DNA from: a virus
Taxonomy: Duplodnaviria; Caudoviricetes
IMG/VR virus record: IMGVR_UViG_3300030330_004093
Span: 39,014 to 103,013 of that record
Length of the DNA stretch: 64,000 bases
Direction: 5' to 3' (one strand)
In this document: positions 2,842 through 54,657 of the stretch, piece by piece
How the letters are laid out: each line of letters begins with the position of its first letter
Position numbering within the stretch: the first letter of the stretch is position 1
Program-made: the position numbers and the translations under genes
Notes under the pieces: generated by a model
The model's input: the letters and a program-made list of their open reading frames with translations, nothing else
What the model was told of the DNA's origin: nothing
The model's database searches: none

Positions 2842-4194
2842 ATGAAAAGACTTAAATTCAAAAAACCATTCAATGGAATGGATAACGCAAAGAAACTTAT
2901 TCCAGAATCTTATAAGGTTGATGGTAAGGAGTTTGAAATGACTGATGGTAATGAAACTTACAAAGTTAAGTGGTCGTCATTAATTAATGAAGGCATTGTA
3001 TTAACATCTTCCAATAAAGCTCAAATCAATGAAGATATGGGCAAAATGAAACATCTTATGGGATTTAAATCTCAAGAAACTCTTGGAACCGTTAAGGGTG
3101 CTGATAGACTTGATGAAAATAAGAAGTTTGGTGACGTGTTAGACAAGACAAAGAAACTAATTAATGAATCTGCAATTACTGAGGTAGAAGAAGAAATAGA
3201 CGAATCAATAGAAGAAGGTGAACACATTAAATCAGGAATGGGTGGTTCTAACAAAGGTAAGAGTAGAACTGACAAGACTGAAGTGTTAAAGAATAAGTCT
3301 AAGAAACAAAGAAGAAAAGCTGACAAGGAAGCTACAAAAGACATCAATGAAAATGATGTTGAAGCACTTCAAAGCGCATTAGGTGATAGCCCAAAGGTTG
3401 CAGCTGCAGCTAAAAAGGTAAACACTAGAGATGAAAAGTTTGAAGCAGCTATTGCTTACATTAATAACATGGTTGGTGACAATGATGTATTAAAAAGTAA
3501 AATAGCTAGAACATTATTAAAAAAAGACGGTAGCGATGTTGTAAATGAGTTTGATGGAGATGAAGACGAGTACGAATACTACCGTAGAGGAGGAAGAGAG
3601 CTTGACGATTATCTAGATGATGCAGAAAAGGAAGCTAGAAGAGCAAAAGAATCTGGAATCTTTAAAGACGATTTACCACCAGGACCTTCAGACGAAGAAG
3701 AACAAGCTGCTCAAGTTTACGAAGATGACTTACCAATACCACCAGGACCTTCAGACGAAGAAGAACAAGCTGCTCAAGTTTACGAAGATAGATTTGACGA
3801 AGTTTTTGAAGGTATGTATGAGGGAGATGATATTGAAACATTAGATGAAGGTTTAAAAAACTGGATAGCTGCTGGTCTTATTACAATAGGTAGTATTGCT
3901 GGTATAGGTAAAGTTATACAATTAGATAATCAAGCACAGGAAGCTAAAATGGAGTACTATCAAAATGTGTTATCACCTAAAACTGGTGATATAGAAAAAA
4001 TGGCTGAATTAGGTCATGAAATTCAAGATGAAACACATGAGTTAGCGATGAGTATGGACCTAATTAAAACTATATCACAGGAAGAAGGTGGTATGAAAAA
4101 CTATTGGGCTGATTTCGCAAAGACTAAACTACAGAAAAATCCACAAGATTTCTCGGTAGACCAATCTGGTACTATACATTATACACCAAAATAA
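2842..4194 (+). CDS. acidic phage protein, paralogue of 1237..2838
   Basis: shared domain at N-terminus; internal peptide duplication; followed by terminator. Confidence 0.75.
   Translation: MKRLKFKKPFNGMDNAKKLIPESYKVDGKEFEMTDGNETYKVKWSSLINEGIVLTSSNKAQINEDMGKMKHLMGFKSQETLGTVKGADRLDENKKFGDVLDKTKKLINESAITEVEEEIDESIEEGEHIKSGMGGSNKGKSRTDKTEVLKNKSKKQRRKADKEATKDINENDVEALQSALGDSPKVAAAAKKVNTRDEKFEAAIAYINNMVGDNDVLKSKIARTLLKKDGSDVVNEFDGDEDEYEYYRRGGRELDDYLDDAEKEARRAKESGIFKDDLPPGPSDEEEQAAQVYEDDLPIPPGPSDEEEQAAQVYEDRFDEVFEGMYEGDDIETLDEGLKNWIAAGLITIGSIAGIGKVIQLDNQAQEAKMEYYQNVLSPKTGDIEKMAELGHEIQDETHELAMSMDLIKTISQEEGGMKNYWADFAKTKLQKNPQDFSVDQSGTIHYTPK
3675..3789 (+). repeat. 52-nt exact direct repeat x2 (PPGPSDEEEQAAQVYED)
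   Basis: 3675-3726 is identical to 3738-3789. Confidence 0.95.
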
Positions 4195-4220
4195 ATTGGT
4201 AATCCATTTATAAATAAATT

Positions 4221-4249
4221 AAACCCTCCCCTAATAAGGAGGGTTTTTT
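4221..4249 (+). terminator. rho-independent terminator
   Basis: aaaccctcc...ggagggttt followed by T-run. Confidence 0.8.
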
Positions 4250-4275
4250 ATTATTTATAGATATTTATTAATAAG

Positions 4276-5466: not shown

Positions 5467-5744
5467 AAACCCCCATTTAAGCTTTATTTATTAATTATTA
5501 TCCTTATAATTGGAAAATGAGGACTATTAATATAATTCTAATGGAACTAGGTTTAGACAAACTTAAGATAGAGGATAAACTTGAAAAGTTAATCAACTCA
5601 AATGATGATATTGATGAAAAAACTAAAGAAATTAAATCAATATTAAGAGAAATAGTCATGATTGACGAAATGATTAAAAAATGGCAAGAGTATATGCCAG
5701 GCGAAGAGCCAAAAAATAATAACGAATAATTAAAATTAATTAAA

Positions 5745-16153: not shown

Positions 16154-16278
16154 TAATAAACGGGGCAACTAATTATTAATGGGGACTTAACGGTTCCCAT
16201 TTTTTTTATTAAAAAAGTTGACAACTTAGTAAAGTTTTAGTATATTTGTGAATATATATATAGTAGTTCTTTTTTTAT

Positions 16279-16642
16279 GGGGTATAATGATATTGATTGC
16301 TTAACGTAATGGTTAACAAGCATGCAGTGTTAGATGGAAACACTAGAATAACCTATCAAGACTTTTAAACGACAACGAATTTAACGTTGACAAAAACTTC
16401 CTTGAAACTTCTACAGTAGAAGTATTTGAAGGAGAGGTAGCATTCGCCTAACAGAAGATGCACGTTCCTTCGGGGACACCAGGTTTATCTGATTGTACTT
16501 AACAATCGGTTGAAGGTTGTAAGTTACCGCTCTGCTAATTTGGGAACTTAATATTTTTGTTCTTTTAGAAAAAACGAACTAAGCATGTAGAAAGTTTATT
16601 GTTAGTAAGTAAGAAGTGGGGTCATGCCCACATACTCCACCA
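16279..16642 (+). ncRNA. ssrA: tmRNA
   Basis: 5' GGGGUAU pairs with 3' AUACUCC (G3-U wobble), discriminator A plus encoded CCA; AAGCAUG boxes near both ends; tag ORF 16371-16451; own promoter and terminator. Confidence 0.92.
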
Positions 16643-16656
16643 TACTTTTTTGCCTT

Positions 16657-16690
16657 AAAACCCATCTCTTAAAAAAAGATGGGTTTTTTT
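16657..16690 (+). terminator. rho-independent terminator after tmRNA
   Basis: aaaacccatct...agatgggtttt T-run. Confidence 0.85.
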
Positions 16691-23893: not shown

Positions 23894-24892
23894 ATGAGAA
23901 GATTTGATAAAATGTACCACATGAAAAAAGCTAATATTTTAGCTGAAGAAAGATATTATGAATCAAAGAATTCATTAAAAGAAGATTACGATTCAATCGA
24001 AGAAAACAGAACAAGCATGTCTGAATTTTTTGGAGAAACAACTGATAATGTAGATACGTTATTAAAAATGTTTTCAAAATATCAACCAGAAAAGGGTTGG
24101 TATATGACTGTGGGTTACGTCAATAGTGCAAAATTAGGTATTACCATTAAAAATGAGAACATGCCTGAGTTAGAGAAAATTGCTAGAGAATTAGGTAATC
24201 CAGCATTTATTGATATGGTAGATTCTGACGATTGGAAAACACAATTCGAAAAGGGTAAGAACACAAAAAATCCATTTGCTGCTCAAAAACCTAGGGGTGG
24301 TGACGCTATACCAGCAAAAATGTATACCACAAAGAAGTTTATGCTCCAATGGAAAAATACAAACATAAAACCTGAGAAGGATGCTGCAGTTAAATCAGTA
24401 TATGATAAGCACGGACTAGATTGGGAAGAAGGTCAAATAGATAAAGACGATAAAAGAGGGTTAGGTTGGGACCAGATACCTGGCACACCGTTCAAACAAC
24501 ACCAAAACACAGGCACTCAGGCGCTAAGTTACTACTCTAAGCAAGATGTTTCAAAAGGCATGGGTGAAACTAAGTACTTCTTGAACTTCCAAGGGGATAT
24601 TACTGAATTGAGTAAAGAAGAAGTGAACTTCATATATTCTTTATCACCTAAAAAGGAATCAGGTATACCTAAGAAACTTGCTCATTTACCGATAGAGGCT
24701 GCAAAAGAAATTGATGCTATTGAGAAGATGTATTCATTTAAAAATTTAGACTTAAGTAAAGTTATGTACATCAACTGTAGTATGAACATAGACGGAGAGA
24801 CTAAGAAGTTTTCATATATAAACTACAATGTTGTACCTAAAGGGTTAGAACCAGGTGAGTTTAAAGAATTTATAGAAGCCTCAATAAGCTAA
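23894..24892 (+). CDS. hypothetical protein
   Basis: 332-aa ORF with TATTTAT upstream and terminator at 24913-24945. Confidence 0.7.
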   Translation: MRRFDKMYHMKKANILAEERYYESKNSLKEDYDSIEENRTSMSEFFGETTDNVDTLLKMFSKYQPEKGWYMTVGYVNSAKLGITIKNENMPELEKIARELGNPAFIDMVDSDDWKTQFEKGKNTKNPFAAQKPRGGDAIPAKMYTTKKFMLQWKNTNIKPEKDAAVKSVYDKHGLDWEEGQIDKDDKRGLGWDQIPGTPFKQHQNTGTQALSYYSKQDVSKGMGETKYFLNFQGDITELSKEEVNFIYSLSPKKESGIPKKLAHLPIEAAKEIDAIEKMYSFKNLDLSKVMYINCSMNIDGETKKFSYINYNVVPKGLEPGEFKEFIEASIS

Positions 24893-24971
24893 ATATAACC
24901 TAATTAAATTATTAAAACCTCAGACGTAAAGTTTGGGGTTTTTTTATGTAAAAAGTCATATTTATTAATAT

Positions 24972-30611: not shown

Positions 30612-30710
30612 ATTATCTATGTATAATAAAAGAATAAAAAAAGTAAATAAAACTTGTATTTTAATATTTTTTTTGTATATTTATAAAAAATAACAAGATA
30701 TTCATATAAT

Positions 30711-30797
30711 ATGAAAACAATTAACAACATACTTGTACTAGTCTTATCTTTAGCAGTGGTATTTACCACAGCCGAAGCAGGTATTGTTGTTTGTTAA
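30711..30797 (+). CDS. candidate attenuator leader peptide 1 (MKTINNILVLVLSLAVVFTTAEAGIVVC)
   Basis: 28 codons with clustered CTT, CTA, TTA, TTA; precedes a terminator and tRNA-Leu(UAA)/(UAG). Confidence 0.7.
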   Translation: MKTINNILVLVLSLAVVFTTAEAGIVVC

Positions 30798-30819
30798 ACA
30801 TATTAAAAGATAATTAAGC

Positions 30820-30851
30820 AACCCTGATTCGGAAACGAGTCAGGGTTTTTT
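30820..30851 (+). terminator. attenuator-type terminator upstream of the tRNA-Leu pair
   Basis: aaccctgattcg-gaaa-cgagtcagggtt plus T-run. Confidence 0.9.
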
Positions 30852-30891
30852 GTTATATAAACTTTAATAAAACATAATAAATTAAAAAGTC

Positions 30892-31047
30892 ATGGATGAA
30901 ATAAGAAAAAGAACGATTAGAGAATGGGCGGCTCAAGGTATATTGGGTCATATTATAGACAACCTCCTCGAAACTCTAGAAGAAACTGAAATTGAGGATA
31001 TGGATGAGATTAAAAACGAAAATCAAACCATAATTAGACACAATTAA
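30892..31047 (+). CDS. 51-aa acidic protein, absent from the ORF track
   Basis: MDEIRKRTIREWAAQGILGHIIDNLLETLEETEIEDMDEIKNENQTIIRHN, A-rich leader. Confidence 0.6.
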   Translation: MDEIRKRTIREWAAQGILGHIIDNLLETLEETEIEDMDEIKNENQTIIRHN

Positions 31048-31056
31048 TAACTATAC

Positions 31057-31131
31057 GTACCAGTGCGGAAATTGGCAAAGCCGAACAGACTTAAAATCTG
31101 TTGATTAGGAGTTCGAATCTCCTTTGGTACA
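31057..31131 (+). tRNA. tRNA-Leu(UAA), short variable loop
   Basis: GUACCAG/UUGGUAC acceptor, ACAGA-CU UAA AA-UCUGU, AGGAG-UUCGAAU-CUCCU. Confidence 0.9.
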
Positions 31132-31136
31132 CTTAT

Positions 31137-31211
31137 GCCCAAGTGCGGAAATTGGCAAAGCCGAATGGTCTTAGAAACCATTGATTAGGAGTTCGAGTCT
31201 CCTCTTGGGTA
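31137..31211 (+). tRNA. tRNA-Leu(UAG), short variable loop
   Basis: GCCCAAG/CUUGGGU acceptor, AUGGU-CU UAG AA-ACCAU. Confidence 0.9.
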
Positions 31212-31235
31212 CTTTTTAACTTAATTCTAATTAAA

Positions 31236-31469
31236 ATGGAAATTAAAAAAAGAGCTTGGGATAATTTCTTAGATGCTGTGGATTTTGAATCTGACACTAG
31301 TAATTTTAAATATGATTTTAAAGTTATGACTAAAAAATATGGGCAAGCTTTTATGTTTTATTGCATAAACGCTTGGGAAATTAACAATGATGTGATGTCT
31401 GAAAAAGAATTTTGTGAGATGAATGGTAACATTCCAGAAGGTTATTTTAAAAAAATTATAAAAAAATAA
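31236..31469 (+). CDS. hypothetical protein (only one Leu in 77 aa)
   Basis: ORF directly after the tRNA-Leu pair. Confidence 0.6.
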   Translation: MEIKKRAWDNFLDAVDFESDTSNFKYDFKVMTKKYGQAFMFYCINAWEINNDVMSEKEFCEMNGNIPEGYFKKIIKK

Positions 31470-31537
31470 ATATTATGTTGCACAGTAATAAATTTATTTG
31501 TATATTTGCGCTTATAATAATATAAAAATAAATAATT

Positions 31538-31891
31538 ATGTTTACATTAAAAGGAAAATTAATCGTTAAGGGTGAGGAAAAGCAAATCACTGAAAAATTT
31601 AAAAAGAGAGAATTCGTAATCCAAGACGATTCTGAACAGTATCCCCAAGTGATATCGTTCCAATTAGTTCAAGACAAGTGTTCTTTGTTAGAAACTTATA
31701 ATGAAGGTGACGTTATCTCAGTTAACTTTAACGTTAGAGGTAGAGAATGGGTTTCACCTAAAGATGGAGAAACTAAATATTTCAACAGCCTTGAGGCTTG
31801 GAAATTATCTGGTGAAAATGATGCGCCGACTCAAATTCCCACAGCAGTTAGTAATACTAACACTGGTGAAGAGGATGACTTACCATTTTAA
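31538..31891 (+). CDS. DUF3127 family OB-fold protein (SSB-like, DDLPF tail)
   Basis: FKKREFVI, YPQVISFQLVQDK, FNVRGREW, YFNSLEAWK, DDLPF. Confidence 0.85.
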   Translation: MFTLKGKLIVKGEEKQITEKFKKREFVIQDDSEQYPQVISFQLVQDKCSLLETYNEGDVISVNFNVRGREWVSPKDGETKYFNSLEAWKLSGENDAPTQIPTAVSNTNTGEEDDLPF

Positions 31892-31979
31892 TAATGGTTT
31901 AATTTTATAAAAGTAATTGAAAGGACCTAATCGGGTCCTTTCTAATTATAGCTATATATTTATATATAAAGTTTAAACA

Positions 31980-32933
31980 ATGAAAAAAATACTATTATAC
32001 CTAACATTGTTATTGTTCTTAACAAAGACTTATGGTCAGTGTGATTACGATGTGTCTAGTTCATTACCAAGCACGTTGGTTTTAAATGATGGGGACACCC
32101 TTTGCGTTGGTAGTGATTTAACAACCACAGCCACTATAGTTATCAATAGCGGAGGTATAATATCTATAAGTAATAATTCTGATTTAAAGATAAACGGTTC
32201 GCTAACAGTTCAACCAGGGGGTAGAATAGAATTTTTAGACTGCAACTCAACATTAGAGGTTTATGGCAATTACACAGGACCTTATAATGAATGTGAGTTG
32301 GTAGTATATTGCGCCCCAGCATCTGCTCAAGACCCACTTACCTTGGTGTCTGGTAGTAAGACATGGAATGATTGGTGTGCTCACGGTCCACTACCAGTAG
32401 AGCTTATAGATTTTAGTGTTAAAGAGTCTGATTCTGAAATATTAGTTTCATGGGTTACTGCGTCAGAAATAAACAACCACTATTTCGAAGTTCAAACATC
32501 ATCGGATGGTATAAATTGGGAAATAATGGATATAGTTGAGGGTATGGGTAACACTATGGAGATAACCAGTTATTCAAGTTTAGTATCAACCGAAAATACA
32601 TATTTTAGATTAAGACAAGTTGATTTTGATGGTCAGTTTGAGTACTCAAATATTTTATATATCAAAAACACCAACAAGGATTCTCTAACTAAAATCATAC
32701 CAAACCCAAATGATGGTGATTTTATAATTAAACTTAATAGTGTTATAAAAGAAGAAATGGTTATAAGAATATTTGATATTAAGGGCAGTTTAGTGTGCCA
32801 TCAAATAACCATAAATGATTTAAATAGTGATATACTTATATTAAACATAAAAGATAAATTATCACCTGGTGTTTATCAAATATCAGGCATTAGTGATGAA
32901 GTCATTTTTTCTGAAAAATTAATCGTAAAGTAA
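31980..32933 (+). CDS. secreted protein with T9SS type-A C-terminal sorting domain
   Basis: signal peptide; PLPVELIDF, WVTASEINNHYFEV, YFRLRQVDFDG; IPNPNDG...IFDIKG...LSPGVY...KLIVK. Confidence 0.85.
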   Translation: MKKILLYLTLLLFLTKTYGQCDYDVSSSLPSTLVLNDGDTLCVGSDLTTTATIVINSGGIISISNNSDLKINGSLTVQPGGRIEFLDCNSTLEVYGNYTGPYNECELVVYCAPASAQDPLTLVSGSKTWNDWCAHGPLPVELIDFSVKESDSEILVSWVTASEINNHYFEVQTSSDGINWEIMDIVEGMGNTMEITSYSSLVSTENTYFRLRQVDFDGQFEYSNILYIKNTNKDSLTKIIPNPNDGDFIIKLNSVIKEEMVIRIFDIKGSLVCHQITINDLNSDILILNIKDKLSPGVYQISGISDEVIFSEKLIVK

Positions 32934-33022
32934 TTTATAATATGTCATATTGTCTGTAAATCACAAATGGTATTCTATTTGAGTGGTTATGATTTATATA
33001 ACTAATAACAAAAAAAATAATT

Positions 33023-33331
33023 ATGTTTGAAAATTTTGACGACTTGTACAACAAGTTTTTTAAGAAAAACCTAGGTGAAGACCTAAATGAACCAGATAAG
33101 GTGGTTAAATTTAATAAAAACGGAAAATCTTACGAACAAAGAGTTTGGGATTTAGATAATGGAACCATAATAAAAACCAGTATGATTTCTAGTGATTTAG
33201 GTGAATCTATTAATCCTAAAATGGGAAGAAACGCCATGAATAAATCATTATTAAATGAAGCCTTAGAATTAGCTGTTGAGGAGGAGAGATATGAGGATGC
33301 CGCTAAGATAAGGGATTATTTAAAAAAATAA
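33023..33331 (+). CDS. protein with C-terminal UvrB/UvrC (UVR) motif
   Basis: LELAVEEERYEDAAKIRD. Confidence 0.75.
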   Translation: MFENFDDLYNKFFKKNLGEDLNEPDKVVKFNKNGKSYEQRVWDLDNGTIIKTSMISSDLGESINPKMGRNAMNKSLLNEALELAVEEERYEDAAKIRDYLKK

Positions 33332-33706
33332 TAACATACATGTACTACTTAACAACCCATCTGTAATATTTATATATAGATGGGTTTTATTTTGCTCATA
33401 TAATTTAAAATAAAAAATATTGAAATCTTAAATAATGAAAGACATTAGTAAACATATATTTTCTAAAGAATTAAACAACAACATAGATAACCCAGTAAAA
33501 CCATCTGACAAAAACACAATATGGAAGGTATTTAACGAAGCAGATTGGAAAACTTTTCCGAAAGGGATGGGTAAATTTTTTACTTGTGATAAGTATGGAA
33601 ATAAAAAATGGGAAGAATGGGGACCTTATTTTGGTGAATTAAGTTCACACACAGATTGGGTAAACAAAGGAATATCTCATTGGTTAACCAAAAAAGCGTA
33701 TTAATA

Positions 33707-34315
33707 ATGAAAAAGCTAATTAAAAAACTATTAAGGGAACAATTATTTAATGAAATTAAATATGACTCCTCTAACATAAGTGAAGATATAGGGTTGTTTA
33801 TCATACGAAAAAACACTCTAATGTTATATGATATGTTAGAGTATGATGATAGTGAAAGAATAAGAGGCGTTAAGGGGATAATAACACTATCTGATGAAAA
33901 CGGAAAGTATTCTGTAAACAAAGTTGCTGCCGTTAAGGGCTACGGTCCGATTATGTACGAATTAGCCATGCAACATATATACCCAAATCCACTTATATCT
34001 GACAGGGATGGAGACACCAGAGAAGGTGCTTTAGGTATATTACAAAAATTTAGTCAAGGTATAAATAAAGAAGTTGAAGTAACTACACTACAACCAAATG
34101 ATTTAGAATATGTTGAGTGTTTAGAATTTGGTTGTGATGATAATGAACCAGAGTTTTTTAAACTACATAACTCAGAATTTAAAATGTCTAACAAATCACT
34201 ATATAATAAATTAAAATATGAAGGTGAGGAGTTTCTGGAAGACGTAGGTTTTGAATTTATTGACGAATTAGAGGGGTTAGGTTCAGATTTTTTTGATAAA
34301 ATGTACATGTCGTGA
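33707..34315 (+). CDS. hypothetical protein with LLRE tag, possibly GNAT-like
   Basis: MKKLIKKLLREQ; VAAVKGYGPIMYE. Confidence 0.55.
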   Translation: MKKLIKKLLREQLFNEIKYDSSNISEDIGLFIIRKNTLMLYDMLEYDDSERIRGVKGIITLSDENGKYSVNKVAAVKGYGPIMYELAMQHIYPNPLISDRDGDTREGALGILQKFSQGINKEVEVTTLQPNDLEYVECLEFGCDDNEPEFFKLHNSEFKMSNKSLYNKLKYEGEEFLEDVGFEFIDELEGLGSDFFDKMYMS

Positions 34316-34624
34316 AAAAATTAATACTATTAATACTGTTTTTATTATTAATTACATCTTGTGAAATAGAGTATGAAAAAGCAATATATTCTGTTGATGA
34401 TATTGTGATAATAAAGCCAGATAGTTCAACAGTTAAGATACTAGATTACACAACTTGGTCAGACCACACAAAATATACTGTTGAATATTTGGACACTACC
34501 AAAAAAAGTATTATATTAGAGGAAGAAATTATTAATTATAAAAATAATTAAAAAAAAATTATATTATTGAAACTTTTTACATATATTTGTAATATATATT
34601 AATAACTATTTTAATTAAATATAG

Positions 34625-34726
34625 ATGAACTTTATAATTGACATACATACATTCGAACAAAATTCACAAGGTGGGACGCCGAGTGAAACGGGTTGTTGTT
34701 TGTTGATTTTGCCAGATAAATTCTGA
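34625..34726 (+). CDS. candidate attenuator leader peptide 2 (MNFIIDIHTFEQNSQGGTPSETGCCLLILPDKF)
   Basis: lies between promoter TATATTTG (34582) and terminator; contains GAC, CAT, TTC, GAA, CAA, TCA, CCG and CCA codons matching the downstream tRNAs. Confidence 0.65.
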   Translation: MNFIIDIHTFEQNSQGGTPSETGCCLLILPDKF

Positions 34727-34748
34727 CAAGGAGTTCAAAAGAAATTAC

Positions 34749-34779
34749 AACCCAATTCAAAAACGAATTGGGTTTTTTT
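34749..34779 (+). terminator. attenuator-type terminator upstream of the 9-tRNA array
   Basis: aacccaattc-aaaaac-gaattgggtt plus T-run. Confidence 0.9.
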
Positions 34780-34797
34780 GTGCAATTATTTTAATAA

Positions 34798-34873
34798 CGA
34801 GTAGTAGAGGAGCTAGGTTTATCTCGCTTGCTTTGGGAGCAAGAGCACACAGGTTCAAATCCTGTCTACTCGA
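34798..34873 (+). tRNA. tRNA-Pro(UGG)
   Basis: CGAGUAG/CUACUCG; CUUGC-UU UGG GA-GCAAG. Confidence 0.9.
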
Positions 34874-34882
34874 CTAAAACAT

Positions 34883-34953
34883 TGCCTCATGGTGTAATGG
34901 TAACACATCTGTCTTTGACACAGAGATTTAAGGTTCAAATCCTTATGAGGTAA
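34883..34953 (+). tRNA. tRNA-Gln(UUG)
   Basis: UGCCUCA/UGAGGUA; UCUGU-CU UUG AC-ACAGA. Confidence 0.9.
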
Positions 34954-34959
34954 CAATAT

Positions 34960-35031
34960 GGTGGTTGAAGCTTTAAGGTGAAGCGTTAGACTGTGAATCT
35001 AAAGAAAACGGCTCGATACCGTTCTACCACC
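34960..35031 (+). tRNA. tRNA-His(GUG)
   Basis: G-1, C73; UUAGA-CU GUG AA-UCUAA. Confidence 0.88.
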
Positions 35032-35036
35032 CACCT

Positions 35037-35108
35037 AGGAGTGTAGTTCAAAGGATAGAACACTAGGCTACGAACCTGAAGATGTGGGTTCGAATCCTAC
35101 CACTCCTA
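35037..35108 (+). tRNA. tRNA-Arg(ACG)
   Basis: AGGAGUG/CACUCCU; AGG-CU ACG AA-CCU. Confidence 0.88.
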
Positions 35109-35114
35109 CAACAT

Positions 35115-35189
35115 CTAGAGGGATAACGATGGTTGTTTACCCGCCTTGGACGCGGGAGGCTGTAGGTTCGAATCCTACTCTCTAGACCA
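35115..35189 (+). tRNA. second tRNA-Pro(UGG), atypical D-arm, encoded CCA
   Basis: CUAGAGG/UCUCUAG; CCCGC-CU UGG AC-GCGGG; G instead of U at position 8. Confidence 0.75.
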
Positions 35190-35235
35190 AGTGTCAGTTT
35201 ATTGCGATTCTGAACAGAAACAAAAATTAGCTACT

Positions 35236-35322
35236 GGAAAGACAAGCCAATTGGTGGTGGCCGCTGACTTGAAATCAGTTAGGAGTTAATGACTCGTAGG
35301 GGTTCGACTCCCTTTCTTTCCG
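35236..35322 (+). tRNA. tRNA-Ser(UGA)
   Basis: GGAAAGA/UCUUUCC, G73, long variable arm; GCUGA-CU UGA AA-UCAGU. Confidence 0.9.
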
Positions 35323-35331
35323 CATTAATTT

Positions 35332-35402
35332 GGAATTTTCGAATAATGGTAGTTCGCCTGGTTGAAGCCCAGGAGGTAGGGGTTCGACTCTCTTAGATTC
35401 CA
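35332..35402 (+). tRNA. tRNA-Phe(GAA)
   Basis: GGAAUUU/AGAUUCC; CCUGG-UU GAA GC-CCAGG. Confidence 0.88.
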
Positions 35403-35407
35403 CACAA

Positions 35408-35480
35408 CATCGGTTCGGCAAGCTGGTTAAGCCATCACCCTTTCAAGGTGAAGTCACGGGTTCGAATCCCGTACCGATGA
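35408..35480 (+). tRNA. tRNA-Glu(UUC)
   Basis: CAUCGGU/ACCGAUG; UCACC-CU UUC AA-GGUGA. Confidence 0.9.
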
Positions 35481-35485
35481 CTAAT

Positions 35486-35558
35486 GGATGGTGTGGTGTA
35501 ACGGCTTGCATACTTGCCTGTCACGCAAGAGGTCGGGGTTCGAATCCCCCACCATCCG
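35486..35558 (+). tRNA. tRNA-Asp(GUC)
   Basis: GGAUGGU/ACCAUCC; CUUGC-CU GUC AC-GCAAG. Confidence 0.9.
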
Positions 35559-35909
35559 CATTTTATTAGTATTTACTATTGCTATTTATTAAATTTTTAT
35601 TATATTTGGGGTATGAAAAATAAAGTACTAATAGACATGGATACAGAAAGAGAAGACGTAATCAGAGTATCCAAACCAGAACAAGAGTTAAACGAAGTGT
35701 TAGATGATGAAAATACGGCTAAAAAAATGTTATATGACGACCTAACAACCTTATGTAACGGATTAGGTTCATTAATAAAATATGGTGAAGATAAAAAGTA
35801 TTTTGAAGGTGAGCCAGTAGCTGAAATATGTATTAAATTCTTAAAAGATAACTTCAGTACATTAGATGGTGATTAATTTTTTTAGTCATTATTATATATT
35901 TATATTCAT

Positions 35910-50973: not shown

Positions 50974-51544
50974 GCAACAAAATAATAAAAACTACTGAGA
51001 AATACGTAGTCACAACAACTGAAAAAAGAATTTTAACCTCATTACCAGACGGCAATTACATTGGCAAATGGGGTGGTTATATAATAACAGTGAATTATCG
51101 AAACAAAACATATGAATGTAAAACTGAAAGTGGTGTTAGGGGCGTAGGATACACTGTAGTTGTTAATGTTAAAGATGGGGAATCAACATTTATTGAAATA
51201 GATAATTAAAATATAAAAAACATGAAAGTAGAAAATTATACAGGTTATACCGTTGAAGTTAAAATAACTAAAAGAACTACACTAGAATTTGATTTTGATG
51301 AGGTCGAAACCAATAGAAGCTTGGAAGATTATGTATTAGAAGAAATTAGAAGAAACTATACAATAAATCACCCAGAAGAAGAGGTTGAAATCATTAAGGT
51401 AGAAACTTGGTAAGTAAATAATATAAAATAACATTAAGTAATTAAAGAGTCCGTTAAATTAACGGATTTTTTTTGTTAAACATATTTACTTTAAAAAAAA
51501 AAGATGTATATTTGCGCCCATAATAATATAAATAAATTTTTTTT

Positions 51545-54168: not shown

Positions 54169-54225
54169 AAATAAATTGAATTATATTTGCTAGAATGAAA
54201 TAAAATACATATATTTGAAATATAC

Positions 54226-54319
54226 AGTAATATAGCAGAGGGTTACGGGGAGGTTCCGCAAGATAAGAGGTATCTTAGAAGACTTGAAAGCACCGATGCT
54301 GGTTGATACGACTATTACT
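54226..54319 (+). ncRNA. unknown multi-branched RNA (~94 nt)
   Basis: closing stem AGUAAUA/UAUUACU with three short internal hairpins; GC-richer than flanks; promoter TATATTTG at 54210. Confidence 0.45.
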
Positions 54320-54324
54320 ATTTT

Positions 54325-54520
54325 AAACTCTCCAAGCTAATGGATGAGCAAGTGAATACGCTTACAGTGCTAGGCTGTCTCAGGAGGAAACAACTCAGGT
54401 ATCACAACACTATCAAGAGTGTTAGCTTTGAAGTTAGGTACAACCGTTTACGGAGTTGTTAAAATACATAGATGAATATAGCCTATGTTTTGTATTCCAC
54501 TTGGAGGACTTGGAGAGTTT
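54325..54520 (+). ncRNA. 196-nt rod-shaped RNA, 6S-like architecture
   Basis: four nested helices separated by internal loops (see findings). Confidence 0.6.
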
Positions 54521-54580
54521 TTAAAAACAAACAAAGGTCATTAAAATGGCAATAAATGTTTGTTTCTACAGACATTTAAT

Positions 54581-54657
54581 GAGAGAATAGCTCAGTGATA
54601 GAGCGATGGTGAAGTGCACTGATTCCATAGGCGTAGGTTCAAGTCCTACTTCTCTCA
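54581..54657 (+). tRNA. tRNA-like RNA with expanded anticodon loop, identity undetermined
   Basis: GAGAGAA/UUCUCUC, GCUC/GAGC D-stem, GUAGG-UUCAAGU-CCUAC; AUGG-(15 nt)-CCAU. Confidence 0.75.

What the first reader, a model, noticed from the sequence alone, without database searches (positions are those of the whole stretch)
30711..34779. The two tRNA leaders are one homologous cis-regulatory RNA family
Seen in sequence: both leaders contain GTGG..GCCGA..GG followed by an identical 12-mer TTGTTGTTTGTT (30784-30795 and 34693-34704). The 12-mer is read in different frames in the two ATG ORFs, so conservation is at RNA level. The terminators are related (CAACCC..ATTC..AAACGA.T..GGGTTTTTT). In both, the start-codon region can pair with sequence at or after the stop (AAUAUG..AACAA with UUGUU..CAUAUU; UGAACUUU with GGAGUUCA). 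Inference: a reusable attenuator scaffold whose sensing codons are re-programmed for each tRNA cluster.
Basis: partly seen in the sequence, partly recalled or inferred. Interest (0 to 1): 0.8.

Follow-up and report, generated by a model that had tools for sequence, protein, structure and literature searches.

The report
Leader-peptide attenuators gating phage tRNA genes
Both stretches are short translated "test" genes wired to a switchable transcription stop in front of phage tRNA genes. Each belongs to a family found in many uncultured phages, in which the same RNA frame is rewritten in the codons of whichever tRNAs follow, a control I could not find published for tRNA genes.

Summary
The 12-mer occurs only at 30784 and 34693 in the 103-kb record, in different reading frames. 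The two terminator regions are each other's best match, and both start codons pair with sequence at or after the stop.

Each unit is promoter, 28- or 33-codon ORF inside a long hairpin, intrinsic terminator, then tRNA genes with no promoter of their own.

Relatives show what they are:
- L2 belongs to a family ("B") found in about 20 distinct viral and metagenome contigs. A model built without window sequences scores it 65.9 bits.
- L1 belongs to a second family ("a/b"), scoring 69.5 bits.
- Within each family the ends of the frame are kept, while the middle codons change with the tRNAs downstream.
- All 12 non-training model hits end 4-111 nt upstream of a tRNA.
- 13 of 15 leader peptides name every amino acid of their array.

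"One homologous family" is only moderately supported. The two families detect each other at E about 1e-3 to 1e-5. L1's terminator module resembles B-type modules, but the a/b model does not find L2 (17 bits). The 12-mer itself is not conserved in relatives.

This scan has noted the same phenomenon before in other phages. I found no published account.

The parts
30654..30683 (+). L1 promoter-like site: TTGTAT, 16 nt, TATATTTA
   Evidence: Read. Intergenic promoters of this phage have the form TTGACA-N17-TATATTTG.
30711..30797 (+). L1 leader ORF, 28 codons
   Evidence: Model R2, built from 12 a/b-type leaders of other contigs, scores 30699-30852 at 69.5 bits, E 1e-11.
30732..30761 (+). L1 stall zone: codons 8-17, a Leu/Val block with CTT, CTA, TTA, TTA
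   Evidence: Ribosome-position scan: the terminator's 5' arm stays sequestered (0.85-0.87) with the A site anywhere up to codon 17, and falls to 0.10 from codon 18. Relatives carry Leu/Val/Cys blocks at this place.
30723..30735 (+). L1 region 1: 5' strand of the long hairpin
   Evidence: MFE fold.
30773..30795 (+). L1 region 2: 3' strand of the long hairpin and 5' strand of the antiterminator; contains the 12-mer
   Evidence: Duplex with the terminator's 5' arm is -9.2 kcal/mol, p 0.03 against shuffles.
30816..30831 (+). L1 region 3: pre-terminator bases plus the 5' arm of the terminator
30820..30852 (+). L1 intrinsic terminator: 12-bp stem, GAAA loop, T run
   Evidence: -19.5 kcal/mol.
30892..31047 (+). 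51-codon ORF between the L1 terminator and the tRNA-Leu genes; no promoter-like box ahead of it
   Evidence: The relative L061 also has a CDS at this place.
31057..31212 (+). tRNA-Leu(UAA) and tRNA-Leu(UAG)
34582..34589 (+). L2 promoter box TATATTTG
   Evidence: The same box heads all B-type leaders.
34625..34726 (+). L2 leader ORF, 33 codons
   Evidence: Model R1, built from 17 B-type leaders of other contigs, scores 34613-34779 at 65.9 bits, E 6e-11.
34640..34669 (+). L2 sensing block: codons 6-15, with GAC, CAT, TTC, GAA, CAA, TCA, CAA read by array tRNAs
   Evidence: This stretch differs from the Thr-Tyr-Gln-Pro-Lys block of other B-type leaders.
34667..34693 (+). Conserved B-family core (apical hairpin and start of region 2)
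   Evidence: The pattern found about 20 distinct relatives. Apical pairs are invariant in A3.
34689..34708 (+). L2 region 2, containing the 12-mer
   Evidence: GGGUUGU pairs with ACAACCC.
34737..34758 (+). L2 region 3: A-rich pre-terminator bases plus the 5' arm of the terminator
34749..34780 (+). L2 intrinsic terminator; it ends 18 nt before tRNA-Pro
34798..35559 (+). Nine-tRNA array: Pro, Gln, His, Arg, Pro, Ser, Phe, Glu, Asp

Best explanation
L1 (about 30690-30852) and L2 (about 34596-34780) are ribosome-dependent transcription attenuators that gate phage tRNA genes. Each transcript starts at its own promoter and carries a short ORF folded into a long hairpin (regions 1:2), followed by an intrinsic terminator (regions 3:4). 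Region 2 can pair with region 3 instead of region 1. If a ribosome translating the leader stalls on codons read by the tRNAs encoded downstream, it holds region 1. Region 2 then captures region 3, the terminator cannot form, and RNA polymerase reads into the tRNA genes. If those codons are decoded quickly, the ribosome runs over region 2 and the terminator forms. The result is negative feedback on the supply of exactly those tRNAs. The two window leaders belong to two related sequence families (a/b for L1, B for L2). In both families the ends of the frame are kept and the middle 'sensing' block is rewritten as the array changes. L1 also carries a B-like terminator module, which is why it resembles L2. 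Shown: anatomy, family membership, placement, codon and amino-acid match, pairing potential. Inferred: translation of the leaders, stalling, termination and read-through.
For: Anatomy: promoter, ORF, hairpin and terminator are present, with no room for a promoter before tRNA-Pro, only 18 nt. Family B: about 20 distinct contigs share the core; in-frame 3-nt indels keep the ORF, and the arrays run Pro, Pro, Gln, Tyr, Thr, Gly, Gly, Lys. The leader block is built of just those six amino acids, with GGC plus GGG and AAA plus AAG matching the two Gly and two Lys tRNAs. L2 keeps the 3' frame of family B but has Asp, His, Phe, Glu, Gln and Ser codons ahead of an array containing those tRNAs. Family a/b has the same 5' and 3' ends with either a Leu/Val/Cys block before Cys-Val-Leu arrays or a Phe/Asp/Ala/Glu block before Phe-Glu-Asp-Ala arrays. 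The cultured Cellulophaga phage phi4:1 has three such leaders, each listing its own sub-array. Codon match inside structure-defined stall zones gives Fisher P 3e-13 over six leaders, with background levels outside the zones. In 13 of 15 leaders the peptide contains every amino acid of the array (Fisher 5e-8). In all 8 leaders of the first set scanned, sequestration of the terminator's 5' arm drops close to where the matched block ends; in the later set of 9 a drop is seen in most, and L023 and L018 show none. Antiterminator complementarity against shuffles gives Fisher 4e-6 and 3e-7 on nine further leaders. All 12 non-training CM hits end 4-111 nt upstream of a same-strand tRNA (P 9e-13). CM membership and cross-detection. 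Platform similarity.
Against: There are no expression data: the one RNA run gave no contig over either leader. Taken alone, the window's own leaders match their arrays only weakly: L1 3 of 16 codons (P 0.11), L2 8 of 17 (P 0.07), and L2 has no Arg codon for tRNA-Arg. L1's Val codons have no tRNA-Val downstream. At equilibrium with the full terminator present, only two of eight leaders switch, so the switch has to be kinetic. Within family B most proposed pairs never vary, so covariation is weak there. In the a/b family only 5 of 12 leaders show significant antiterminator complementarity in a crude test. Direct L1-L2 homology is weak on the sensor half (R2 scores L2 at 17.1 bits). E-values come from short calibrations and are rough.
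Confidence: 0.7

Rival explanations
1. The mechanism is the same, but L1 and L2 are not homologous. The two families arose separately. The 12-mer and the similar terminators reflect shared constraints (this phage's terminator style, with region 2 imitating the terminator's 3' arm and T run), or a recent exchange or conversion of the terminator module within this genome.
For: R2 does not detect L2 (17.1 bits, E 0.16). The 12-mer is absent from relatives of both leaders. Terminators of the three leaders within phi4:1 and within L035 are not alike, so likeness within one genome is not the rule. AACCC...GGGTTTTTT is generic in this phage. The A-rich leader plus ATGARAAC start could be a translation-initiation preference of the host.
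Against: Cross-detection runs both ways between the families, above the scores of ordinary terminators: 25-40 bits against 21 or less. L1's platform is closer to B-type platforms of unrelated contigs (33-34) than to any other sequence of its own genome apart from L2's (26). A module exchange would itself be homology of that half.
Confidence: 0.22
2. They are not regulators. They are two independent small transcription units (small RNA or small-protein genes) that end at ordinary terminators, and the tRNAs are made by leaky read-through or processing. The codon match is coincidence.
For: Each unit has its own promoter and a strong terminator. The L1 peptide is hydrophobic and could be a membrane peptide. 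For L1 and L2 alone the codon match is not significant.
Against: Across families the peptide composition follows the array. The a/b frame is kept while its middle changes from hydrophobic Leu/Val/Cys to acidic Phe/Asp/Ala/Glu, which no conserved peptide function explains. Placement upstream of tRNAs is 12 of 12. Region 2:3 complementarity exceeds shuffles.
Confidence: 0.05
3. They are RNA-only sensors (T-box-like tRNA binding, or a protein-dependent antiterminator) and the ORFs are incidental.
For: The hairpins are stable (z -3.2 to -7.2), and the 12-mer is read in two frames.
Against: No T-box or other Rfam family matches. Indels in family B are in frame and the start codon is invariant. The signal lies in codon and amino-acid identity, not in a specifier-like loop.
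Confidence: 0.03

Closest known systems
Multivalent leader-peptide attenuators of enterobacterial amino-acid operons (ilvL for Ile/Leu/Val, thrL for Thr/Ile; also trpL, hisL, leuL, pheL)
   Same: A short translated leader with clustered regulatory codons; 1:2, 2:3 and 3:4 alternative pairings ending in an intrinsic terminator; several amino acids can be sensed by one leader (established knowledge; anatomy tested here).
   Different: The genes controlled here are tRNA genes, not biosynthetic enzymes. The codon list mirrors the anticodons encoded downstream and can reach 19-20 amino acids. The elements are phage-borne, in Bacteroidota-type phages. No Rfam leader model matches (Phe_leader 15.7 bits against a 55-bit threshold).
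pheM leader of the pheST operon (attenuation of phenylalanyl-tRNA synthetase)
   Same: A gene of the translation apparatus is set by ribosome stalling at codons that report the state of one tRNA species (from memory of the literature; not tested here).
   Different: One amino acid, a host gene, and a synthetase rather than the tRNAs themselves.
T-box riboswitches
   Same: They couple tRNA status to terminator/antiterminator choice upstream of translation-related genes.
   Different: T-boxes bind uncharged tRNA directly and need no translation. No T-box match was found here, and the signal here is an ORF whose codons match the array.
Notes of this scan on other phages (e1-5381190, e1-5656129, e1-5326844, e1-5322966, e1-3450868 and others)
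   Same: They report the same phenomenon: codon-matched leader-peptide attenuators in front of phage tRNA arrays.
   Different: They concern other genomes and are AI notes, not publications. The additions here are two sequence families with covariance models, the rewriting of the sensing block within a kept frame, a possible exchange of the terminator module, and the three leaders of the cultured phage phi4:1.

Membership tests
Leader-peptide (ribosome-mediated) transcription attenuators | A short ORF with clustered regulatory codons just downstream of a promoter | tested here: met
   ORFs of 28 and 33 codons. In family B the start codon is invariant and indels are in frame. Codon match in stall zones: Fisher P 3e-13. 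Translation itself has not been shown.
Leader-peptide (ribosome-mediated) transcription attenuators | An intrinsic terminator between the leader and the regulated genes | tested here: met
   Terminators at 30820-30852 and 34749-34780. Terminator pairs covary in the a/b family: in the terminator plus apical-hairpin test, 11 pairs (7 of them terminator pairs) change on both sides, 0 of 500 shuffles.
Leader-peptide (ribosome-mediated) transcription attenuators | A mutually exclusive antiterminator pairing that a stalled ribosome favours | tested here: inconclusive
   Met in silico in the truncated-transcript scan for all 8 leaders of the first set; of 9 later leaders, L023 and L018 show no drop, and by duplex tests. 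But only 2 of 8 switch at equilibrium, and 5 of 12 a/b leaders are significant. No experiment has been done.
Leader-peptide (ribosome-mediated) transcription attenuators | Regulated genes are amino-acid biosynthesis or synthetase genes | tested here: not met
   tRNA genes lie downstream.
Rfam leader families (Trp, His, Leu, Phe, Thr leaders and others) | A score at or above the family's gathering threshold | tested here: not met
   No hit at gathering thresholds. The best weak hit is Phe_leader at 15.7 bits against 55.
B-type tRNA-array leaders (model R1, defined here) | A significant full-length match to a model built without window sequences | tested here: met
   L2: 65.9 bits, E 6e-11. L1: 27.9 bits, E about 1e-3, marginal.
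a/b-type tRNA-array leaders (model R2, defined here) | A significant full-length match to a model built without window sequences | tested here: met
   L1: 69.5 bits, E 1e-11 (met). L2: 17.1 bits, E 0.16 (not met).
T-box riboswitch | Specifier loop and T-box sequence, detected by the Rfam model | tested here: not met
   No match at E up to 10 in either leader.
Type I toxin mRNAs (hok-like), considered for L1 | A conserved small hydrophobic peptide with 5'-3' mRNA pairing and an antisense RNA | tested here: not met
   The 5'-3' pairing is present. But relatives with the same frame carry an acidic Phe/Asp/Ala/Glu middle, so the hydrophobic peptide is not conserved. An antisense RNA was not looked for.

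The most novel reading that the evidence does not exclude
Phages of Bacteroidota meter each block of their tRNA genes against the cell's actual decoding capacity, using a modular and recombining family of leader-peptide attenuators. The sensor half and the terminator half can be exchanged, and the sensing block is rewritten whenever tRNAs join or leave the array, up to leaders that list all 20 amino acids. Such a circuit would also switch the arrays on when host defences cut or deplete particular tRNAs.
Probability: 0.55. Interest if true: 0.9.

Novelty: new variant of a known kind. Interest (0 to 1): 0.85.

Why it matters
How phages regulate their tRNA genes is largely unknown. The usual view is that tRNA arrays simply compensate for codon usage or replace tRNAs destroyed by host nucleases. 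A leader peptide written in the array's own codons would make tRNA supply self-adjusting, and would be the first case of attenuation acting on tRNA genes. The families defined here give testable material:
- two covariance models;
- dozens of natural variants in which the sensing block has been rewritten;
- three leaders in Cellulophaga phage phi4:1, which is in culture.
The leader sequences also predict which tRNAs a phage considers limiting, without any experiment.

Tried and rejected
- DNA searches of the leaders and the 5-kb region against the phage collection gave nothing useful.
- Neighbouring proteins found no related loci (one search was a coordinate slip).
- Rfam found no family for either leader.
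- Equilibrium folding with the complete terminator present showed a ribosome-dependent switch in only two of eight leaders. I replaced it with a truncated-transcript (kinetic) scan.
- A rigid rule cutting arrays at gaps over 250 nt truncated several arrays and made the codon test on the second set uninformative (Fisher 0.14). I then used arrays bounded by the next leader or by the locus.
- L018 does not fit the pattern: its peptide covers 8 of 12 array amino acids.
- Other R1 hits in the window (24785-24945, 51333-51473, 4081-4250) are gene ends with ordinary terminators, not leaders.
- The public RNA run X20 gave contigs only at 33130-33538 and none over either leader, and the tables of variants from DNA runs were cut before the leaders. 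Nothing can be concluded about expression.
- The B-core pattern has no match in 185,579 prokaryotic species genomes.
I re-ran it from coordinates.
- A hok-like toxin reading of L1 was considered and dropped (see membership test).


Full report
CONTEXT. The window is the right-hand 64 kb of a 103,013-base IMG/VR virus record with 31% G+C, which CheckV rates as 29% complete. Its intergenic promoters have the form TTGACA-N17-TATATTTG, and DNA runs that hold it are marine metagenomes. It carries two tRNA clusters: Leu, Leu at 31057-31212 and nine tRNAs at 34798-35559. It also carries a tmRNA and one more tRNA-like gene.

OBSERVATION.
- The 12-mer is exact at 30784 and 34693 and occurs nowhere else on either strand of the record. 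It starts at codon position 2 in one ORF and position 3 in the other.
- Random window pairs of the same sizes share an exact 12-mer in 0.8% of trials.
- The terminator regions are reciprocal best matches in the genome (38, against 26 and 34), although AACCC...GGGTTTTTT is this phage's general terminator style.
- Both leaders fold into a long hairpin that runs from the start codon to just past the stop, followed by the terminator (z -6.3 and -3.2, terminator included).

ANATOMY.
- L1: TTGTAT-16-TATATTTA (30654-30683); a 28-codon ORF (30711-30797); a terminator (30820-30852); a 51-codon ORF; then the two tRNA-Leu genes with no promoter box in between.
- L2: TATATTTG (34582); a 33-codon ORF (34625-34726); a terminator (34749-34780); then tRNA-Pro only 18 nt later.
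- The tRNAs can therefore only be transcribed through these terminators.

RELATIVES.
- A tRNA-Pro pattern led to Cellulophaga phage phi4:1 and to viral contigs with the same layout.
- A pattern from L2's apical hairpin then found about 20 distinct leaders in viral and metagenome contigs, which I call family B. All have the TATATTTG box, an A-rich leader, an invariant ATG, in-frame indels, a terminator, and an array reading Pro, Pro, Gln, Tyr, Thr, Gly, Gly, Lys.
- Their peptide core is made only of Thr, Tyr, Gln, Pro, Lys and Gly. GGC plus GGG and AAA plus AAG match the two Gly and two Lys tRNAs.
- L2 keeps the 3' half of this frame, but its 5' block reads Asp, His, Phe, Glu, Gln, Ser, which are tRNAs of its own array.
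- A pattern from L1's 5' end found family a/b. Its members share the same first seven codons and the same last five. The middle is either Leu/Val/Cys before Cys-Val-Leu arrays (type a, to which L1 belongs) or Phe/Asp/Ala/Glu before Phe-Glu-Asp-Ala arrays (type b).
- The 22 pattern matches with an ORF but no terminator or tRNA have unrelated peptides, which serves as a built-in control.
- Contig L061, syntenic with the L1 region, has an alternating Ser/Leu leader ahead of three Leu and two Ser tRNAs.
- phi4:1 has three leaders, one of them annotated as hypothetical gp075. Each lists the amino acids of its own sub-array.

TESTS.
- Placement: all 12 non-training hits of model R1 end 4-111 nt upstream of a same-strand tRNA, against a background of 0.099 (P 9e-13; two pairs are near-duplicates).
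- Codon match: inside stall zones defined only by structure, Fisher P is 3e-13 over six leaders. Outside the zones the match is at background.
- Coverage: 13 of 15 leader peptides contain every amino acid of their array (Fisher 5e-8). One 43-codon leader holds all 20 amino acids before a 22-tRNA array. One 39-codon leader lacks only Glu, as does its array.
- Switch: on transcripts cut before the terminator's 3' arm, the 5' arm is sequestered while the A site is on the matched block, and is freed once the ribosome covers region 2. This holds in all 8 leaders of the first set scanned. Most of the 9 later leaders show the same drop, but L023 and L018 do not.
- Antiterminator complementarity against dinucleotide shuffles: Fisher 4e-6 and 3e-7 on two sets. 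It is heterogeneous within a/b, where 5 of 12 are significant.
- Covariation: strong for the terminator and apical hairpin in a/b, with 11 pairs changed on both sides and 0 of 500 shuffles reaching that. It is weak in family B, where most pairs never vary, although 76-97% of cells pair against 18-49% when the partners are slid.

ARE L1 AND L2 ONE FAMILY?
- Both models were built without window sequences. R1 (B) gives L2 65.9 bits and L1 27.9 bits. L1 is the second-best hit in the window; plain terminators reach at most 20.8 bits.
- R2 (a/b) gives L1 69.5 bits but L2 only 17.1 bits.
- R2 does find B leaders in other contigs at 25-40 bits, and R1 finds a/b leaders at 23-29 bits. Both models also find other leader types, always before tRNAs.
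- When the leaders are split in two, L1's sensor half is closest to a/b. Its terminator half is closest to L2 (37) and to B-type platforms of unrelated contigs (33-34), and less close to a/b platforms (28).
- The 12-mer is the strand shared by the long hairpin and the antiterminator. It is not conserved in relatives other than the near-identical L043.
- My reading is one loose superfamily with modular halves. L1 probably carries a B-like platform. The 12-mer is a feature of this phage lineage.

COMPARISON WITH WHAT IS KNOWN. The logic is that of trp-type, and especially multivalent ilvL/thrL-type, attenuation. The targets (tRNA genes) and the roster-like leaders are not described in any paper I could find, and no Rfam family matches. 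This scan has noted the same phenomenon in other phages.

LIMITS. There are no expression data. The window's own leaders are individually weak cases. E-values come from short calibrations. Family members are phylogenetically related, so the combined P values overstate independence.

Noticed in passing
L001 (Cellulophaga phage phi4:1, NC_021788) 2879-3005, 3832-3977, 5573-5735: A cultured phage carries three tRNA-array leaders. The second is annotated as hypothetical protein gp075. Each peptide lists the amino acids of its own sub-array (Pro-Glu-Gln-His-Leu-Leu-Arg; Ala-Lys-Ile-Gly-Met-Asp-Thr-Val-Arg; Tyr-Ser-Asn-Trp-Phe). This is a ready experimental system.
   Followed up: partly
L002 2939-3130, L010 744-936, L016 5332-5517: A 43-codon leader contains all 20 amino acids ahead of a 22-tRNA array covering all 20. 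A 39-codon leader lacks only Glu, and its 21-tRNA array lacks only tRNA-Glu.
   Followed up: partly
L019, L024, L035, L036, L021, L023: between the leader terminator and the first tRNA: A conserved motif close to GTTCWTTGACATRTTGG lies 10-25 nt before the first tRNA, in several loci after a small GTCC...GGGAC hairpin. It is too close to the tRNA to be a -35 box for it. Its function is unknown, and it is absent from the window's L2.
   Followed up: no
window 54182-54657: Two TATATTTG boxes (54182, 54210) head about 350 nt without an obvious gene, ending in a tRNA-like gene at 54581-54657. Rfam's tRNA model scores it at 58 bits, but ARAGORN does not call it and its anticodon arm looks oversized. 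No Rfam family matches the 350 nt.
   Followed up: partly
window 16241-16690: A phage tmRNA gene (Rfam 54.2 bits, 16279-16642) with its own TTGACA-N17-TATATTTG promoter and a terminator.
   Followed up: no
window 34798-35559 compared with L035: Contig L035 has separate a, b and B leaders for Cys-Val-Leu, Phe-Glu-Asp-Ala and Pro-Gln-Tyr-Thr-Lys arrays. The window's second array ends in Phe, Glu, Asp, and its single leader lists Phe, Glu and Asp as well as Gln and Pro. It looks as if two arrays had been merged under one rewritten leader.
   Followed up: no
window 30676: In one marine DNA run (X14) a contig has ATA inserted behind 30676, inside L1's promoter box. Otherwise no leader variants were listed.
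   Followed up: no
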